Shown: positions 7,585-21,545, counted from the stretch's first letter. The stretch is DNA of 62,963 nucleotides from Ruminococcus sp. (GCA_017465305.1 JAFTWL010000155.1:1-62963); one strand, 5' to 3'. Notes: a model not told the origin generated them from the letters alone. Translations and numbers: made by a program.

Positions 7585-7628
7585 GTTTCGGCAATTCTAT
7601 AATTTAAAAATTGAATAGATTGCATTTC

Positions 7629-7740
7629 CAGAGTAGGAAGTGATGCGTTAAGTGTCTGGCAGACGGGGAGTTGTTGCTGGAACGAAAAGAGGCAGGGTTT
7701 TTATTCCTTGTACTTGCGGTATCACTTCCGCATCCCGCTG
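7629..7740 (+). promoter_or_regulatory. THF (tetrahydrofolate) riboswitch
   Basis: CAGAGTAGG...CGTTAAGTG...ACGGGGAGTTG...ACGAAA...TTGCGG...CCGCATCCCGCTG matches the THF aptamer pattern; directly upstream of folT. Confidence 0.92.
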
Positions 7741-7839
7741 AATGCATCATAAGAAGCCTTTCAAAATAAAAGACTCCTTATGTGCACTAAGCACCATTAT
7801 TTTAATGCCGTCGTAATGACGGAAGGAGGTTTTTTATTT

Positions 7840-14114: not shown

Positions 14115-16595
14115 TTAAGACCTTGTAAAACACAATGATTTTATAGGAATACCAAGTTTTCTGTTATCTTCTTGCTGAAAATCTGAAGCATTCCATAAAT
14201 CACATGAAAAAGTCACTGTGTTTTGTTTATCTGTCAATACCTTTTCAGGAACTTCTATTGAAAATGATTTCCCGTTATTTTCTTTTGTAATTTCTTCTTT
14301 ACCTATTGATTTACCGTTTATAGATATATCAACAATTATTTTTTCTTTCTTTATGGCATCCAAAGGTATAGAACAACCAAGTTCTACAGTTAGTGTATAA
14401 TCATCAGGCTTTAATGAACATTTTACTTGTGCATTTTCTTTTGTTGACCAACAAAAATCGTTTTCTAATGTTCCAAAGCCAATATAATTTGTGCCTGTAT
14501 ATTCAGAAGCAGGATAATTGTTTTCAAATGTCAGAAACCTATACAAGCATATAGGTTCATCATATTTTAAAAAGTCAGTAGGCAATACAAATAAGTTACC
14601 TGAGTTTGTTAAGTCGTCCTCACTATGGTGAACTGTATTATAATACTTGCAAGAATAATTATCAGTTTCCGTTATTTTTGTAACATCGTTTGTCAGATAA
14701 TATACATGAGAATAATTTTTGCTGTAATTCTCCATCTGATTTTGAATGTCTCCTATTATCGGATAGCTGTCAGCACCTGTAATATTTCTTATAGGTAGAT
14801 AGAAAGCAGGAGCAAGATTATTATCAATTATAAGACAGTCATCAGCTGTAATAATAGAAGTTATATCCTCAAGAATCTGCCATTGTGAACGAGTATCATC
14901 TTTTTCTGATGCAATAAAATGTGTATATGGTGATAATGATAATATGCCTACTGCTGTAATTAAAACAGATGATATGGCTGTACGTTTTTTCCATGTATTA
15001 AGCATGACAGCTCCAAATATAACAGCAACAGGGATAAACGGAGCCATATAACGACTGTAGTAATAATAATACTGAATGCTAGGACGAAGCAGCGCAGAAT
15101 ATATTAGAATGCAGTAAACAAACATTGCAAATGATACTAAGATTTCAGGACTTTGCAATATTTTTTTTGTCTTGAACAGTGCTGTAAGCATGGCTACAGG
15201 AATTAAAAGCAAGCCTGTCTGTACTACAAATCCATATACTGTGACATATCTGAGTTCCTGCAAGTTTTCAACGTTTAGTATAGCTTTTATAATGCAATAT
15301 GCAGTTGGAAGTACAAGTAATAAAATAATAAATATTTGAGCTAAACGACAGTTTTTTGCTTTCTCGCAGAAATTTTCTGAGGAAAAGCCTATAGATTTTC
15401 TTTTAAGAAGCCATACATATCCTATTGTAAACAATAAAAGAACTGCACATACAATTGAAACTACAACAGGTAAATTAAATACATTTATTCCAAATACAAA
15501 AATGTTGCGATAATTATTCATTGTATAAAATGGTTGCATATGTCTCATAGAGAAGAAGCTTACTGCATAAATTACTACAGAGGAAATTAGCAATATGCCA
15601 TATGCTTTTTCTCTTTTGAAGAGATATAATCCTGCATAAATTATTAAAAATACAGGTAGTATAGTATAGAAAGAAACATGATAGAATCCAAATATGATTA
15701 TAGGGAGAATAGACAGCCATTTGCTTTTTTCATATTTTTTATCCGTCAGAAAGAATATAAATAAAGTTAGAATAACAGCAAGGAACATCTCTGTCAAAGA
15801 TGATTTAGCAACCCATATAACTACAGGGGCACAGGCACTTAATGCACAGGCAAGTACTCTTATGCTTGCTTTACAGTTCATGTTTCTACAAGTTTCATGC
15901 ACAATGAATATCATTCCAATCCAGAATACAGTCTGAAGATTTATCATATTTGAAATTCCAAATAGTTTAGCAAATAATGCAAGCATTGCCGGATAAGTAG
16001 GGATTCCATGATAAATGCCGGAAACAGGGCTTATATTTCTATCATAAACTGTATCAGGGTAATCATTTGGTGAAATATCATATCCTACAAGATTTGAATG
16101 AACAAATTCAGTAAAAGTCGCCTGTGCCTCAGAATTAGTTAGTAGATGATATTCTGCAAAATCATGTTGTCGCTGTGATAGTCCATTTAAAATATTTATT
16201 GCAACGACCTGATAAACTCCCTGGTCTTGTCCCATTCCAAATAACTCGTTTTTATTCATAATTAAAGGTAAACATATAATTGATATTATAATGGGTATAC
16301 AAACAGGTTTAATGCTTAAATCAGGTGTTAAGTGAATAGTTCCTTTTTTCCGATGCTCAAAAAAAGCAGTCAAAGCTACTCCTATACTGCATAGTATGCC
16401 AGTAACAGCAACAGCTCTGTTTAATGTAAATATATCTGAAATAAATAAAAATACACTTCCTAAGACATAAATGCAGAAGTAAAGACAAACACCAATCACA
16501 GAAGAAAAGACTATATTTTGTTTTGGAAAAAGTAAAACTGTTTCAAATATTGAAAGAAGTATTCCAGCAACAAAGCATATAACAAATATCGTCAT
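14115..16595 (-). CDS. large polytopic membrane protein, probable GT-C fold glycosyltransferase
   Basis: More than 12 TM segments, GQDQGVY acidic motif in the first large loop, LTE motif, soluble C-terminal domain; translationally coupled to the GT4 genes. Confidence 0.65.
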   Translation of the reverse strand: MTIFVICFVAGILLSIFETVLLFPKQNIVFSSVIGVCLYFCIYVLGSVFLFISDIFTLNRAVAVTGILCSIGVALTAFFEHRKKGTIHLTPDLSIKPVCIPIIISIICLPLIMNKNELFGMGQDQGVYQVVAINILNGLSQRQHDFAEYHLLTNSEAQATFTEFVHSNLVGYDISPNDYPDTVYDRNISPVSGIYHGIPTYPAMLALFAKLFGISNMINLQTVFWIGMIFIVHETCRNMNCKASIRVLACALSACAPVVIWVAKSSLTEMFLAVILTLFIFFLTDKKYEKSKWLSILPIIIFGFYHVSFYTILPVFLIIYAGLYLFKREKAYGILLISSVVIYAVSFFSMRHMQPFYTMNNYRNIFVFGINVFNLPVVVSIVCAVLLLFTIGYVWLLKRKSIGFSSENFCEKAKNCRLAQIFIILLLVLPTAYCIIKAILNVENLQELRYVTVYGFVVQTGLLLIPVAMLTALFKTKKILQSPEILVSFAMFVYCILIYSALLRPSIQYYYYYSRYMAPFIPVAVIFGAVMLNTWKKRTAISSVLITAVGILSLSPYTHFIASEKDDTRSQWQILEDITSIITADDCLIIDNNLAPAFYLPIRNITGADSYPIIGDIQNQMENYSKNYSHVYYLTNDVTKITETDNYSCKYYNTVHHSEDDLTNSGNLFVLPTDFLKYDEPICLYRFLTFENNYPASEYTGTNYIGFGTLENDFCWSTKENAQVKCSLKPDDYTLTVELGCSIPLDAIKKEKIIVDISINGKSIGKEEITKENNGKSFSIEVPEKVLTDKQNTVTFSCDLWNASDFQQEDNRKLGIPIKSLCFTRS

Positions 16596-17782
16596 TACTT
16601 TGTACCTATTACTTGCTCAATTACAACATTGAATTTTTCAAGAATAATATCCCAGTCGTAATTGTCAAGTATATAATCAATTGCATTTTCTCTCATCTGT
16701 TCATATGCTTCATGTTGCGTCATCATAAAGTTTATGGTTCCCTCAAATTCAAAATAGTTGCGATAATATAAACCGCCATTACTTCTGACACAGTGACCTC
16801 GTAATACGTCACATGCACCATTTACAATAACAGGAACGCCAACAGCCATTGACTCTAAAACAGAAATAGAAAGGCTTTCAAAATATGATGGAAGAACTAA
16901 AGCTCTTGCACCAGCAAGGCCGTTAAATTTATCCTCTTCAGATACAAATCCAAGTGATATAATATCAGGGTGGTCAGGTATTCTGCAAACAGCTTTTCCC
17001 ATAAGAACTAATTTAAGTGGACTTGGATTTCTTTCTTTATATTCAATAAAGTAACGGAATAGTGTAGGACAGTCTTTTCCTTCATCGATTCGACCTACAT
17101 AGATTAAATACGGTTCACGTATATCATATTTATATCTAAAAGCAGAAGTAGAAATGCGTTTTGGCACATCAATACCTGTTCCCATTACTTCGCAAGGGAT
17201 TCCATCTGTTGCAAATAAACGTCTTACAAGCATACGTTCTTCATCAGTCAGAAAAACAAAAGCTTTAGGAAGAGTGAAAAGATATTCGTAAATTTGAAAA
17301 TGTATATAAGGTTCTTCATGAGCAGTTGGAATCAGAATAGCTTTGTCAGCAACTTCCGGAAGTCCTAAAACTGTCAGATAATATAGATATGTCACAAATA
17401 TAAAAACATCATATTCATCTTTGTGTTTTCTTATATATTCAATACATTTCGGAGAATAAGGACCTTGTTTTTCAAACCAGAGTTTTTCTACACTAAGATT
17501 TCTGTTTCCCTTTTCGCATTCAGCTAAATAATCTTCGTTATATTTGTTGAAATCATCAGCTCTTTGTTTTTCGACAGGAAAGCGTCTTACTGTTACACCA
17601 TGAATATTTTCGACATCTCTTGCATACCAATTTTTCCATGTCGTATAATCAACAGCTTTTGTTGTCAATACATCGACTTCATAACGTGTTGCAAGTCGTT
17701 CAGCAATCATTCTTGTATAATATTCTGAACCGCCATTTACTTCTAATCCATATCGCTGATTTACTAATGCAATTCTTTTCAT
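16595..17782 (-). CDS. glycosyltransferase family 4
   Basis: GGSE N-terminal motif, YVGRID..K, ESLSISVLES (EX7E) motif. Confidence 0.92.
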   Translation of the reverse strand: MKRIALVNQRYGLEVNGGSEYYTRMIAERLATRYEVDVLTTKAVDYTTWKNWYARDVENIHGVTVRRFPVEKQRADDFNKYNEDYLAECEKGNRNLSVEKLWFEKQGPYSPKCIEYIRKHKDEYDVFIFVTYLYYLTVLGLPEVADKAILIPTAHEEPYIHFQIYEYLFTLPKAFVFLTDEERMLVRRLFATDGIPCEVMGTGIDVPKRISTSAFRYKYDIREPYLIYVGRIDEGKDCPTLFRYFIEYKERNPSPLKLVLMGKAVCRIPDHPDIISLGFVSEEDKFNGLAGARALVLPSYFESLSISVLESMAVGVPVIVNGACDVLRGHCVRSNGGLYYRNYFEFEGTINFMMTQHEAYEQMRENAIDYILDNYDWDIILEKFNVVIEQVIGTK

Positions 17783-17786
17783 TTTC

Positions 17787-18974
17787 TCACCCCTCAATTA
17801 GTTCTTTGAAAAAAGCTTTATATCTTCTTACAACGACATCCCAGTCAAAATTTCTTAATACAAATTGTCTGCCATTCTGACCCATTAAATCAGCCTTTTC
17901 AGGGTAGCCCTGCATCCAGTTCAGACAACCTTCAAATTCAAAATAATCTTTGAAATAAAGTCCGCCTTCTGAACGTTTAGTAAAGTCTTTAGTTACTGCA
18001 CAATCATTATGAACTAATACAGGTCTTCCGCATAGCCAGCTTTCCATAATTACAAGTGAAAAGCTTTCATTTTTAGATGGCTGACAGAGTAGAAGTGCAG
18101 CACTTTGAGCATCATATTTATCCTGAGTATCAACGAAGCCCAAATCAAAAACCTTATCCTTAATATCAGATGGAATATCAATATCACCACCACCAATTAA
18201 AACAAGTTGTAATTCTGAACGGACACGTTTATGATATTCAGAAAAATATTTGATAAGAGTATCAACATTTTTTCCGGAATCTTTTCTGCCTGCATAGAGA
18301 ACAAAAGGTTTATTTATGCCATATTTCTCACGGAAGGCATCAGGATTTCCGCTTATTTCAGTATCCATTCCAATGCCTACACAAAGCTGTGCAACATTTT
18401 GCAGGTCATATAATTTATTTGCAAGTTGCATTTCAGGCACTGAATTAAAAATCATACCTCTTATATTTACATATGTCTGACGGAACATCCTCATATATGC
18501 GTATGCCTCATCGTGGAAGCATGGAATCATTACAGCCTTTTCAGGGCATGATAAAACGCCATGAAATGTTGTACCAAACATATATGGGATGAATACAAAC
18601 AAATCATAATTTGATTCATGTGATTCTATATATTCATATAGAAGGGGACTGTTAATCATTTCTTGTAAGAACTGTTGTTCTTCTTTGACGCTTATTTGTT
18701 TTCCACGCATAAGTTTTGAATTTATTCTATCAAATGTACGTGTATCTCTTTGACGTACAGGAAAACGGCGGATTGGTATATTGTAAACAAAAGCTGTACC
18801 TGATGAATAATAATTTTCGTTCCAGTCGGAATTAAATGAACGAACGCATGTTGTTAAAATTTCTATATCCATACCAGCATGTTGAAGGTGACCTGCTACT
18901 TCACGGAGTTCCATCTCAGCACCGCCAGGTATTCCTTCTCCATACCATGGAATAACAAAAGCTATTTTATACAT
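17787..18974 (-). CDS. glycosyltransferase family 4
   Basis: PWYG..GGAE, YAGRKD.GK, ESFSLVIMES (EX7E). Confidence 0.92.
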   Translation of the reverse strand: MYKIAFVIPWYGEGIPGGAEMELREVAGHLQHAGMDIEILTTCVRSFNSDWNENYYSSGTAFVYNIPIRRFPVRQRDTRTFDRINSKLMRGKQISVKEEQQFLQEMINSPLLYEYIESHESNYDLFVFIPYMFGTTFHGVLSCPEKAVMIPCFHDEAYAYMRMFRQTYVNIRGMIFNSVPEMQLANKLYDLQNVAQLCVGIGMDTEISGNPDAFREKYGINKPFVLYAGRKDSGKNVDTLIKYFSEYHKRVRSELQLVLIGGGDIDIPSDIKDKVFDLGFVDTQDKYDAQSAALLLCQPSKNESFSLVIMESWLCGRPVLVHNDCAVTKDFTKRSEGGLYFKDYFEFEGCLNWMQGYPEKADLMGQNGRQFVLRNFDWDVVVRRYKAFFKELIEG

Positions 18975-18983
18975 AATAAAAAC

Positions 18984-19144
18984 CCGTTACTGAAAACTTA
19001 TAAAAAGTTATAAGTCGACTTTTATGTTTCATTCCTTGTTCAATGTGTCCGCTTTTGATAAAATCTACTCACGTTTGGTATAACACTCCGAAGGCGTAAA
19101 TTCCCGACTAACGTATCGGTAAATATCAACAGCAATTATTTCAG
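18984..19144 (-). ncRNA. predicted TnpB omegaRNA (right-end RNA) scaffold
   Basis: ~160 nt between tnpB stop and element end with hairpins ccga-tacgttag-tcgg and acttataa-cttt-ttataagt, ending CAGTAACGG; exact 5' boundary uncertain. Confidence 0.7.
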
Positions 19145-20308
19145 CTATGCTGTTAATCCGTATCGCATCAAATTCACACTTGCCTGAAAATCCCTGTCAA
19201 TCGTATTATGACATTCAGGACAGACATAGACACGTTCTGAAAGTTTCAAATCTTTCTTAACATATCCGCAGCAGGAACATAGCTTACTTGACGGATAGTA
19301 TCTGCCAGCTGTGATAAATTTAATATGATTCCAGTGACATTTGTATTCCATCTGTCTGTAAAATTCATAGAAACATTGTTCCTGTACTGCCCTGGCAAGG
19401 TGTTTATTCTTCATCATACCCTTTACATTCAAATCTTCCAGAACGATAAACTTTGGCTTTCGGCTTATAATTTCGGAAGTGGTCTGATGCAGGTAGTTAT
19501 GACAAATATTTGTTAATTGGTGTGTTACTCTTAAAAGTTCTTTTTCACTTTTTACAATATTGCGTGTTTTACAGTAACATACTCCTTTCTTGTTTTTTGA
19601 ATATTTCTTAGATATTCTGCGTTGCAATCTACGCTTTTTCTTCTTTAGTTTTCTGACTTTTGCAGTCTTGTTGATATTTTTATAAACTTTTTTATCAGAG
19701 CATACAGCAAGGTCTTTTATACCTATGTCAATGCCAATACCCTGATTCGTTGACTTTTCCTGTGATTCTTCACATTGAATTCCTACAGAAATCCACCAGT
19801 TCAAGCCGTCAAAAGTAATTCTCGGGTTGGAATACTTTGCATTTACAGGAATTTTTCCTTGTTCAGCAAGTTTGACAAGATTGAACTTCTGCTTGTTCTT
19901 CTTTTTGCTTGTTGTCAGCTTTTCCAGCTTTACATGTGTTCCTGTAAAACTGATTTTTACAGGATCAGCATAGAAGCTTGGTTTTGACTTTCTTCTGCTT
20001 TTGAATTTTGGATAGTCTGCAAGACCTCTAAAAAAATTCAGATATGCTTTACAGGCATCTTTTACAGCCTGTTTTGCAATGTTATTACTGTAATCATTAA
20101 GCCATCTGAACTTCGGATTAGTCTGTTTCAGAGTTGTCAGAATACGTCTTAATTCCACATCACTCACAAACGAATACCCGAAATCATAATTTGTCTGCTG
20201 ATACCATAACGTCCAGTTATAGATAAATCTTGCTGTACCTGCACAGGAAAACAGTTTTGTTTTCTGCTTATTGTTCGGGCAGAGCATTACTTTTATGGTT
20301 TTAATCAT
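19145..20308 (-). CDS. tnpB: RNA-guided endonuclease TnpB
   Basis: N-terminal HTH (PNNKQK..L...AG.ARF.YNW), RuvC-I GIDIG, RuvC-II VLEDL, Zn ribbon CSCCG...CPEC, RuvC-III DRDFQAS.N; catalytic D/E/D intact. Confidence 0.95.
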   Translation of the reverse strand: MIKTIKVMLCPNNKQKTKLFSCAGTARFIYNWTLWYQQTNYDFGYSFVSDVELRRILTTLKQTNPKFRWLNDYSNNIAKQAVKDACKAYLNFFRGLADYPKFKSRRKSKPSFYADPVKISFTGTHVKLEKLTTSKKKNKQKFNLVKLAEQGKIPVNAKYSNPRITFDGLNWWISVGIQCEESQEKSTNQGIGIDIGIKDLAVCSDKKVYKNINKTAKVRKLKKKKRRLQRRISKKYSKNKKGVCYCKTRNIVKSEKELLRVTHQLTNICHNYLHQTTSEIISRKPKFIVLEDLNVKGMMKNKHLARAVQEQCFYEFYRQMEYKCHWNHIKFITAGRYYPSSKLCSCCGYVKKDLKLSERVYVCPECHNTIDRDFQASVNLMRYGLTA

Positions 20309-20336
20309 TTTCTGTAAGCTCCTTTATCATCTTTTC
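20301..20336 (-). pseudogene. tnpA: last ~11 codons of IS607 serine-recombinase tnpA
   Basis: Reads EKMIKELTEND* with the stop overlapping the tnpB start (ATGATTAA), resembling the KKMIKEL..D C-terminus of clostridial IS607 TnpA. Confidence 0.6.
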
Positions 20337-20403
20337 TCTTATAAAAGCTAACAGCTTATTTATAATTTTTTATAATTTGTTTTCAACTGTTAACAACCTC
20401 CAT

Positions 20404-20523
20404 TCAAGCTGAGCCAGCTTGACCGATGTCCGCCCCTGAAATTTATACTACAATTATTTATTTTTCCATATTGCCCCCCCTCACGGGGGCGATATTACTT
20501 ATATTTTAACTATTTTTGTTTTA
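20404..20523. repeat. partial copy of the modular intergenic repeat
   Basis: tcaagctgagccagcttgaccgatgtccgcccc cap, then ctacaattatttattttt...cccctcacgggggcgat.ttactt.tattttaactat, matching 12378-12462. Confidence 0.85.
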
Positions 20524-20576
20524 TATGTCTAACCTAAAATAGTATCTATCAGCGTAGCTTGCTGAGTGATTAAATA

Positions 20577-20651
20577 CAATTCACCCAAAATTGCCCTATG
20601 GGTGCTATGATAGTATAACAAATATTTTAAATCGATATATTGGGTGAATTG
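20577..20651 (+). promoter_or_regulatory. promoter-like sequence enclosed by 12-bp inverted repeats (candidate invertible promoter)
   Basis: CAATTCACCCAA (20577-20588) and TTGGGTGAATTG (20640-20651) flank TTGCCC-N17-TATAAC (20591-20619). Confidence 0.45.
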
Positions 20652-20678
20652 CAAGCTGAAGCTCTCCGCCAAGCTGGT

Positions 20679-21545
20679 TCAGCTTGAGCTTGCTGTAATG
20701 ACTCTTATAATACCATTAAAATCTTTAAAATACTGAATATTTTCAAAACCGTTTTGTTTTAAAATATTTGTGACATCATTTTCTTGTCCCTTGCCTATTT
20801 CGTACACTAAATATCCACCCTTGCATAGAGAATTTTTCCAAAACTTTGTTATATGTTTGTAGAAAAATAGTCCGTCATCTCCTCCGAATAATGCTGCTTC
20901 AGGTTCAAAGGTTACTTCCTTTTGTAAGCACTCCATATCATTTATTGTAAGATATGGTGGATTACAAGTGATTATATCAAACTTTGGAAATCTGCAAGCA
21001 GTTTTACTTTGCACAACATCACATTTAAAAGGGATAATTTTTGGAGCGTGTTTTTCTAAATTTTTTTTCAAATATTCAAAAGCCTGATAATCGTTTTCAA
21101 GTGCATATCCGCTGACATTAGGCAGATTGGAAGATATGGCTATAGGAATACAACCACTTCCACTGCATAAGTCAAGTAGTTTTGTTTCTTTCATTCCAGA
21201 GCGTAATGAACACACAGTATCTACTAAAATTTCAGTATCAGCACGTGGAATTAAAACACCTTCACCTATCTCTAAGGAAATACCGTAAAATTCCCATTCT
21301 CCGAAAATATATTGTAATGGATAATGCTGAATACGACGCTTGCATATAGAATATGCTTTATTGATTATTTCAAGAGTTACAGGCATATTTCCGTCCATGA
21401 GAATATAACCTATATTTTTTTTAAAGATATATTCCATTATAAAGCAAGCCTCAGTTTCAGGCGTATCAATCTTTGAATTTTTTAGAATCTGATTTATTTC
21501 TTTGAATAATTCTCTTCGTGTAATAATATTATTACCATTCATCAT
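20679..21545 (-). CDS. prmC: release factor glutamine methyltransferase
   Basis: PLQYI.G.WEF, VLIPR.DTE, LDLCSGSG, NPPY, EIG..Q. Confidence 0.95.
   Translation of the reverse strand: MMNGNNIITRRELFKEINQILKNSKIDTPETEACFIMEYIFKKNIGYILMDGNMPVTLEIINKAYSICKRRIQHYPLQYIFGEWEFYGISLEIGEGVLIPRADTEILVDTVCSLRSGMKETKLLDLCSGSGCIPIAISSNLPNVSGYALENDYQAFEYLKKNLEKHAPKIIPFKCDVVQSKTACRFPKFDIITCNPPYLTINDMECLQKEVTFEPEAALFGGDDGLFFYKHITKFWKNSLCKGGYLVYEIGKGQENDVTNILKQNGFENIQYFKDFNGIIRVITASSS

What the first reader, a model, noticed from the sequence alone, without database searches (positions are those of the whole stretch)
18960..20405. IS607-type TnpB element inserted into the Shine-Dalgarno GG of a surface-glycan gene: possible excision-controlled switch guarded by an RNA-guided nuclease
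Seen (minus strand): the left junction reads TGAATGGA-GG-TTGTTAAC (GG at 20398-20397) and the right junction reads CAGTAAC-GGG-TTTTTATT-ATG (GT4 start 18974). Joining at the shared GG gives GGAGG-(G)TTTTTATT-ATG, a near-ideal RBS similar to that of folT (GGAGGTTTTTTATTTATG). With the element in place only AACGGG remains before the ATG. Established: IS607 elements recombine at a GG core using a serine recombinase, and TnpB uses the right-end RNA plus flanking sequence as guide to cut the excised allele. Inference: the guide here is the spacer and first codons of the GT4 gene (TTTTTATTATGTATAAAATAG) and the target-adjacent motif overlaps the SD itself. Insertion would lower translation of the GT4-GT4-GT-C operon, excision in trans would restore it, and TnpB would select against the restored allele. 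The omegaRNA also runs directly into the GT4 mRNA, so guide maturation could clip that message.
Basis: partly seen in the sequence, partly recalled or inferred. Interest (0 to 1): 0.85.

Follow-up and report, generated by a model that had tools for sequence, protein, structure and literature searches.

The report
Transposon carrying a spare ribosome-binding site
A jumping gene that lands inside bacterial ribosome-binding sites, here in front of a sugar-transferase gene, hides a spare ribosome-binding sequence in its own nuclease gene next to a match to its far end, so the RNA is predicted to fold back and keep the interrupted host gene translated.

Summary
In detail: a 1,413-bp IS607-type element (intact tnpB, RAGATH-18 guide RNA, tnpA deleted) sits at the GG of the GT4 Shine-Dalgarno (SD).

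The excision-switch reading is not supported. Landing in SDs is a family habit: 11 of 12 RAGATH-18 ends in this genome precede an ATG, including dnaA and der, as do 58/75 and 71/90 related loci. No empty allele appeared in 8 runs (contigs only). Earlier notes of this scan already reported the SD targeting, and a split-RBS idea for remnants.

New here: tnpB codons 240-251 encode an SD followed by the complement of the element's own right end. This box changes in step with the right end (72/73 prefer their own end type; left ends 10/35). Its synonymous positions are held to pairing bases. In this genome, decayed copies shrink to SD plus hairpin (loops of 583 down to 14 nt). The helix would likely place a replacement SD about 12 nt from the host start codon, like T4 gene 25's split RBS, so the insertion is tolerated without splicing.

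Translation is untested, the spacing is long and the independent changes are few. Ten literature searches did not find it.

The parts
20397..20401 (-). Native GT4 Shine-Dalgarno GGAGG, now left of the element; its last GG is the recombination core, and the pentamer is the predicted TAM
   Evidence: Sequence; GGAGG is the commonest left flank, 13 of 36 located left ends; TAM role inferred
18984..20396 (-). Non-autonomous IS607-type element, 1,413 bp (tnpA deleted, tnpB and guide RNA intact)
   Evidence: ends shared with C233 and C81
20340..20396 (-). Left end with subterminal repeats; the tnpA promoter seen in the C233 copy is cut by the deletion
   Evidence: Comparison with C233; 74% complementary to the right end over 38 nt
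20301..20336 (-). Last 11 codons and stop of tnpA; holds the tnpB SD
   Evidence: Translates to EKMIKELTEND; C233 TnpA ends IIKELTEND
19145..20308 (-). tnpB, 387 aa, RuvC triad D194/E291/D373 and zinc finger intact
   Evidence: PF12323, PF01385, PF07282; NF040570 over cut-off; PDB 8iaz at E 4e-70
19582..19587 (-). Internal SD (AAGGAG) in the codons for K240-G242; predicted replacement RBS for GT4
   Evidence: -8.5 kcal/mol, strongest window of this ORF; top 5% of ORF windows in 67/74 and 74/75 relatives
19566..19578 (-). 5' arm of the long-range helix: complement of the right end, one bulged base
19547..19557 (-). Second 5' arm, predicted to pair with 19008-18998
   Evidence: Duplex and fold
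19032..19094 (-). RAGATH-18 core of the guide-RNA scaffold (scaffold approx. 19144-18984)
   Evidence: RF03064, 72.5 bits
18984..19008 (-). Right end: 3' arms of the helix (19008-18998, 18997-18986) and terminal GG
   Evidence: the last 21 nt of the ISFba1 scaffold are disordered and dispensable for cleavage (PMC11061315)
18964..18983 (-). Predicted 20-nt guide: 9-nt spacer plus the first 11 nt of GT4
   Evidence: Inferred by analogy with PMC11061315 and bioRxiv 2023.11.20.567912; its seed has no second match in the assembly
17787..18974 (-). Host gene, GT4-family glycosyltransferase (395 aa)
   Evidence: PF00534; matches in 23 of 24 same-genus genomes
16595..17782 (-). Second GT4 glycosyltransferase
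   Evidence: PF00534
14115..16595 (-). 826-aa hydrophobic protein, no family hit
20404..20530 (.). Copy of a dispersed palindromic repeat family, directly upstream of the native SD; not part of the element
   Evidence: 150 blastn hits on 28 contigs
20679..21545 (-). prmC, upstream gene on the same strand
   Evidence: PF17827, PF05175

Best explanation
This is a transposase-less IS607/RAGATH-18 element inserted at the GG of the GT4 Shine-Dalgarno, and its tnpB gene encodes a second Shine-Dalgarno followed by the complement of the element's right end, which is predicted to fold back and likely serves as a replacement, split ribosome-binding site for the host gene. Shown: the anatomy, the family-wide landing in SDs, the box, its covariation with the right end, and its retention in decayed copies. 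Inferred step 1: TnpA targets GGAGG-like sites, and TnpB guards the locus by cutting excised alleles (by analogy with characterised IS607 elements). Inferred step 2: in the read-through mRNA, 19578-19566 pairs with 18986-18997, looping out about 570 nt and placing the internal SD about 12 nt from the GT4 AUG. Inferred step 3: this keeps the host gene translated, perhaps at a lower level, so insertions before essential genes survive. Inferred step 4: after tnpB decays, selection keeps SD plus hairpin as the gene's permanent RBS. A given transcript would then serve either as guide RNA or as host mRNA.
For: Landing site: 58/75 and 71/90 distinct flanks have a start codon opening an ORF of 60 or more codons 3-13 nt after the end, against 7% of random positions and 35% after any GGAGG. 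Pairing: the box is the best 48-nt partner of its own end in 56/77 ORFs and in the top 5% in 70/77, and 72/73 boxes prefer their own end type. Left ends do not track end type (10/35, against 34/35 for boxes of the same loci). The distant ISFba1-type set has the same geometry with different letters, including a synonymous C-G/U-A switch (39 C-G, 35 U-A, 1 U-G, 0 C-A). Third codon positions keep the pairing base: 36/41 against 8.5 expected, 30/33 against 2.1, 74/75 against 18.3; the bulged control gives 26/41 against 21.2. The SD persists while the amino acids vary (24 and 21 different pentapeptides). In this genome 10 SD-box-end-ATG arrangements have loops of 583 down to 38 (ruvC) and 14 nt; swapped pairings give 0, and six scrambled controls give 1 in all. 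All 11 filled sites lack a linear SD (0 to -3.7 kcal/mol; genome median -8.1), while 18 of 19 GT4 orthologues have one, and the exception carries another RAGATH-18 end. The paired RNA segment is dispensable for TnpB cleavage in ISFba1. Precedent: T4 genes 25 and 38.
Against: No translation or structure-probing data. Folded spacing is long: 12 nt here, medians 11.5 and 11, against 7-9 nt for native GGAGG sites; T4 gene 25 works at 11. Helix probability is 0.98 in a 691-nt fold but only 0.25-0.28 in whole-element folds, and the SD is partly paired in these predictions. Kin are not independent: the trees give only 6+6 (set A) and 2+3 (set B) state changes at the scored pair. The SD is only modestly stronger than synonymous recodings (-9.6 vs -7.4; -8.9 vs -7.3), and for this copy alone p = 0.11. 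With a short probe the box was the best site in only 49/77, and it is weaker in the GGC clade. Ribosomes translating tnpB would unwind the helix. The patterns were designed after seeing some of these loci. SDs of several remnants are moderate (-5.6 to -5.9).
Confidence: 0.62

Rival explanations
1. The helix serves the element's own RNA (timing of guide maturation, tnpB expression or mRNA stability). The SD look comes from Lys-Lys-Gly-Glu codons, and host genes get by on weak, SD-independent initiation.
For: Synonymous recodings already give about -7.3 kcal/mol. Folded spacing is long. About 9% of this genome's long ORFs have no good SD. The element at C233 has the box but no downstream ATG.
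Against: Remnants with no tnpB, and three with no RAGATH-18 hit, keep SD plus helix before an ATG. The SD survives many amino-acid changes.
Confidence: 0.2
2. One reading: insertion turns the GT4 operon down, excision in trans by TnpA turns it up, and TnpB selects against the excised allele, giving a glycan switch.
For: An intact IS607 TnpA is on C233. The filled site lacks a linear SD. Excision and TnpB-driven retention are shown for CboIStron. A second species has an independent insertion before the same gene.
Against: No empty-site joint in 8 runs. The same placement occurs before dnaA and der and in most related loci. An active TnpB would destroy, not maintain, the ON state.
Confidence: 0.07
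3. The internal box is a DNA-level feature (an extra TnpA-binding or recombination site, or a single-stranded DNA hairpin) that evolves with the right end.
For: The second arm resembles the subterminal repeat found in both ends.
Against: The true left end does not covary with the right end, while the box does. One pair takes U-G, C-G and U-A forms (30/2/1). An SD sits directly 5' of the box.
Confidence: 0.07
4. The helix aligns the RNA for a splicing-like cut and join that fuses the internal SD directly to the host spacer.
For: It would remove the 3-5 extra nucleotides of spacing; IStrons solve the same problem by splicing.
Against: No group I or II intron match in the window or in eight sister loci. 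No such joint in two RNA-library runs, which cover the locus poorly. Remnants keep the loop in DNA.
Confidence: 0.04

Closest known systems
IS607 TnpB systems guided by RAGATH-18-derived RNA, e.g. ISFba1 (Ren et al. 2024, PMC11061315; PDB 8iaz)
   Same: TnpB homology (E 4e-70), RAGATH-18 scaffold after tnpB, purine-rich TAM (AGGAG in 18/22 strains, GAGGG in 4/22). The ISFba1 protein has KKGESTQK at the box position.
   Different: This copy belongs to a GG-ended subfamily with a GGAGG-like flank and lacks tnpA. The paper's main text never contains 'Shine' or 'ribosome', and the passages read describe no box in tnpB.
IS607-family IStrons, e.g. CboIStron (bioRxiv 2023.11.20.567912; PMC13521648)
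   Same: GG-core serine-recombinase transposon; TnpB guards against loss; the right end has a second RNA job that spares the host gene and competes with guide function.
   Different: No group I intron here. The predicted rescue is of translation initiation, by a fold-back helix, for insertions in RBSs; IStrons rescue ORFs by splicing.
Split ribosome-binding sites of phage T4 genes 25 and 38 (review PMC3014915)
   Same: An SD far from the AUG is brought close by an RNA helix (27 to 11 nt and 22 to 5 nt).
   Different: Here the loop is up to about 570 nt, the SD lies in another gene's codons, and the device is carried by a mobile element. Function is untested.
IS607 of Helicobacter pylori (Chen et al. 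2018, PMC6188088)
   Same: Insertion at GG without target duplication.
   Different: That element shows no target preference beyond (G)GG; this clade is enriched at SDs.

Membership tests
IS607 family | GG at both junctions | tested here: met
   20398-20397 and 18985-18984; position -2 is G in 36/36 and -1 in 33/36 located left ends, partly by the search pattern
IS607 family | Serine-recombinase tnpA within the element | tested here: not met
   Only the last 11 codons remain; the sister element on C233 has an intact TnpA over the NF033518 cut-off. So a non-autonomous derivative.
IS607 family | No target-site duplication, scarless empty site | tested here: inconclusive
   No duplication beyond the core is visible, but no empty allele was found
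IS607 family | Excision and circular intermediate | not testable with these tools
   Only assembled contigs were available
RAGATH-18-guided IS607 TnpB | TnpB with intact RuvC triad and zinc finger | tested here: met
RAGATH-18-guided IS607 TnpB | RAGATH-18 RNA between tnpB and the right end | tested here: met
   72.5 bits, cut-off 44.9
RAGATH-18-guided IS607 TnpB | Score over the NCBIfam IS607_TnpB (NF038280) cut-off | tested here: not met
   159.6 vs 350; also below IS200_TnpB; passes the general NF040570
RAGATH-18-guided IS607 TnpB | RNA-guided cleavage next to a measured TAM | not testable with these tools
   TAM inferred from left flanks only
IStron | Group I intron core spanning the element | tested here: not met
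   No Rfam intron match
T4-type split RBS | SD and start codon separated by a conserved helix | tested here: met
   Covariation and synonymous constraint; computational only
T4-type split RBS | Folded spacing in the working range (5-11 nt in T4) | tested here: inconclusive
   12 nt here; medians 11.5 and 11
T4-type split RBS | Helix disruption lowers translation | not testable with these tools
   Needs reporters
IS-excision phase-variation switch | Filled and empty alleles coexist | tested here: inconclusive
   No empty joint in 8 of 8 runs, but contigs drop rare variants

The most novel reading that the evidence does not exclude
RAGATH-18 IS607 transposons are specialists of ribosome-binding sites that repair the damage at the RNA level. 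A Shine-Dalgarno and an anti-end sequence written into the codons of tnpB fold onto the right end and rebuild the host RBS. This is a splicing-free counterpart of IStrons, and its decay products become permanent split RBSs of housekeeping genes.
Probability: 0.6. Interest if true: 0.85.

Novelty: new variant of a known kind. Interest (0 to 1): 0.72.

Why it matters
It would explain how a widespread gut-Firmicute transposon family can sit in the ribosome-binding sites of genes such as dnaA and der without killing the host, and why its TAM equals the Shine-Dalgarno. It gives a second, splicing-free way for a transposon to hide its insertions. It predicts bacterial initiation across a loop of several hundred nucleotides, a trade-off between guide RNA and host mRNA, and an origin for split RBSs that start-site predictors miss. 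It also means that part of a genome-editing TnpB's sequence (the KKGE loop of ISFba1) may be shaped by RNA rather than protein needs. A few point mutations in a reporter would test all of it.

Tried and rejected
Empty allele: a metagenome scan for the GT4 5' flank found 0 matches. Same-genus genomes are other species (75% protein identity at best) and do not show the exact empty site. Eight of 20 listed runs were laid, with no joint across the element.

Expression: the RNA-library runs X16 and X17 gave contigs only. A 4,485-nt X16 contig ends at 18954, but DNA carry-over is not excluded and the end cannot be interpreted. An X16 joint 19013-19565 suggests a mini-element keeping only the box, but its short side is 26 nt; not used.

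G-U versus A-C test: 32 against 9 independent origins, but most box positions are A or C, so box transitions give G-U by construction; not used as evidence.

Controls replaced or corrected: the shuffle control is too weak and was replaced by genome controls. The helix probabilities used coordinates two bases off; corrected.

Other checks: the promoter scan was at chance level (13 vs 11.3). No intron was found. The genus-wide RAGATH-18 search scored only 89 candidates per genome and hit 2 of 42, so it does not show absence.

Rows dropped: 4 of 80 GTDB loci without a right end; 17 of 160 ISFba1-type loci (12 without the end pattern, 5 by later filters); 4 'other' end types in the swap test; 41 of 77 loci without a located left end; 2 of 22 GT4 loci not matched by the pattern. 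PMC12507524 and PMC3936740 added nothing on this element.

Full report
1. Observation. The minus strand reads prmC, a palindromic repeat, GGAGG (20401-20397), the element (20396-18984), a 9-nt spacer and the GT4 ATG at 18974. The element holds a left end, the last 11 codons of tnpA, an intact 387-aa tnpB and a RAGATH-18 RNA. A sister element on contig C233 is 85% identical over tnpB and the right end. It has an intact IS607 TnpA and a frameshifted tnpB. An X1 contig spans the right junction and an X2 contig spans the left; both runs may be the source study. Three runs of a second study have contigs with 4-8 differences that run from GT4 30 nt into the right end, just under the tool's bridging limit, so a filled site in other strains is likely. 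No joint across the element was seen in 8 of 8 runs laid (of 20 listed), all contigs.

2. The landing site is a family habit. This genome has 12 RAGATH-18 matches, 8 over the cut-off. Eleven end 6-13 nt before an ATG. The genes score as dnaA (first 300 residues, just under the whole-protein cut-off), der, leuD, rubrerythrin, IreB, HPF, and below cut-off as cysteine desulfurase, PspA-like and MATE; one looks like murG (my recall, not scanned). None of the 11 has a linear SD. I fetched the best 80 of 324 GTDB relatives (set A) and 160 ISFba1-type loci (set B; best 80 of 471 and best 80 of 148). A start codon with an ORF of at least 60 codons follows the end in 58/75 and 71/90 distinct flanks. 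Controls give 212/3000 for random positions, 35% after any GGAGG and 26% after AGGAG. Left flanks are SD-like in 31 of 36 located. Ren et al. measured AGGAG or GAGGG TAMs. GT4 orthologues have ordinary SDs in 18 of 19; the exception carries a RAGATH-18 end of the other subfamily. A GT4-specific switch is therefore not needed to explain the site.

3. A hidden box in tnpB. The codons KKGVCYCKTRNI (240-251) read as an SD (19587-19582), three bases, then the complement of the right end (19578-19566 with 18986-18997, one bulge); a second arm follows in codons 251-254. In set A the box is the best 48-nt partner of its own end in 56/77 ORFs and in the top 5% in 70/77. Three end types occur (29, 11 and 33 loci), and 72/73 boxes pair best with their own type. 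Left ends of the same loci do not (10/35 against 34/35). Set B has the same layout at the same protein position with other letters, and a synonymous switch is matched by the end (39 C-G, 35 U-A, 1 U-G). Paired third codon positions are held far above each ORF's own codon usage, while the bulged one is not. The SD window is in the top 5% of its ORF in 67/74 and 74/75, across 24 and 21 different pentapeptides. The segment of the guide RNA that pairs is the one reported as disordered and dispensable in ISFba1. Limits: trees built without the box give few independent changes (6 and 6; 2 and 3), so the counts overstate independence.

4. What decay keeps. Of the tnpB-less remnants with a RAGATH-18 hit and enough upstream sequence, 8 of 8 keep the box; 7 show the SD, and the eighth is cut at the contig edge. 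The two other copies, before dnaA and der, are cut within tnpB by contig ends, so their boxes were not seen. A genome-wide pattern found 10 SD-box-end-ATG cases with loops of 583, 226, 188, 175, 174, 149, 135, 116, 38 and 14 nt; swapped pairings gave 0 and six scrambled controls 1 (patterns chosen after seeing some loci). Three of the 10 have no RAGATH-18 hit, including the 38-nt case before ruvC. Shared sequence upstream of the SD among remnants, matching tnpB codons in the ISFba1-type ones, indicates that the SD came with the element.

5. Mechanism. Most likely (0.62), the helix loops out the 3' part of tnpB and the guide scaffold and presents the internal SD to the host AUG, as in T4 genes 25 and 38. 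The helix has probability 0.98 in a 691-nt fold but 0.25-0.28 in whole-element folds, and the SD is partly paired in these predictions. Folded spacing is 12 nt against 9 native, with medians of 11-11.5, so rescue may be partial. The element's own promoter appears deleted, so tnpB and GT4 are probably transcribed from upstream (inference). Guide maturation would destroy the leader of that transcript, a trade-off like that of IStrons. Excision in trans remains possible but would be opposed by TnpB. Rivals are an element-internal RNA role (0.2), the excision switch (0.07), a DNA-level site (0.07) and splicing (0.04).

6. Prior knowledge. The element is a non-autonomous member of the RAGATH-18 IS607 group, not an IStron. 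What I saw of each paper: PMC11061315, passages and sections 5 and 10; passages only for PMC6188088, bioRxiv 2023.11.20.567912 (59), PMC13521648, PMC3014915, PMC13565253, PMC3936740 and PMC12507524. No supplements were read; per-strain TAMs in Ren et al.'s supplement may bear on the TAM. Ten searches listed no paper on SD targeting or a replacement RBS in IS607 elements; the library lacks most subscription journals. Earlier AI notes of this scan report the SD targeting on other DNA, and two suggest that remnants aid translation. I had noted the box before seeing them, and a word search for the in-gene covariation found none. The anti-SD motif used for all energies is a recalled consensus.

7. 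Verdict. The feature is real, but it is not a glycan switch. It is a probable RNA-level repair of the ribosome-binding site, encoded inside tnpB, with strong comparative support and no experimental test. New variant of a known kind; interest 0.72.

Noticed in passing
window 20404-20530 and 20600-20690: Dispersed palindromic repeat family, 150 blastn hits on 28 contigs, often in tandem or inverted pairs and often ending just before a gene's SD; no Rfam match.
   Followed up: partly
L016:1-160 (G021): Independent insertion of an ISFba1-type RAGATH-18 end before the orthologous GT4 gene in another species of the genus.
   Followed up: partly
L006 (G000:C81:3709-4270): Mini-element with left end, strong SD and a perfect 12-bp box, then a promoter-like site and about 300 nt of non-coding sequence with no Rfam hit, before a MATE gene.
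   Followed up: partly
L289 (G000:C31:2927-2996); G000:C121 minus strand; G000:C95: Remnants with no RAGATH-18 hit that keep SD plus paired arms (loops 38, 14 and 149 nt) before ruvC and two genes with signal-peptide-like starts; best short substrates for a reporter test.
   Followed up: partly
G000:C233:13680-15701: Full-length IS607 element with intact tnpA and frameshifted tnpB, not before a start codon; complements the window's copy (tnpB intact, tnpA lost).
   Followed up: partly
run X4 record 22; run X5 loose end at 18984: The same tnpA-deleted element appears behind GGAGG with a different upstream flank, and a right end is followed by another gene's spacer and ATG, suggesting further insertion sites.
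   Followed up: no
G000:C227:10453-11550: A more distant solo tnpB (29% identity) with different ends and no RAGATH-18 hit, probably IS200/IS605-type (recall).
   Followed up: no
window 7627-7742; 1200-1573: THF riboswitch (RF01831) and three tRNA genes (Pro, Thr, Tyr).
   Followed up: no
window 14115-16595: 826-aa hydrophobic protein downstream of the two GT4 genes has no Pfam or NCBIfam hit.
   Followed up: no
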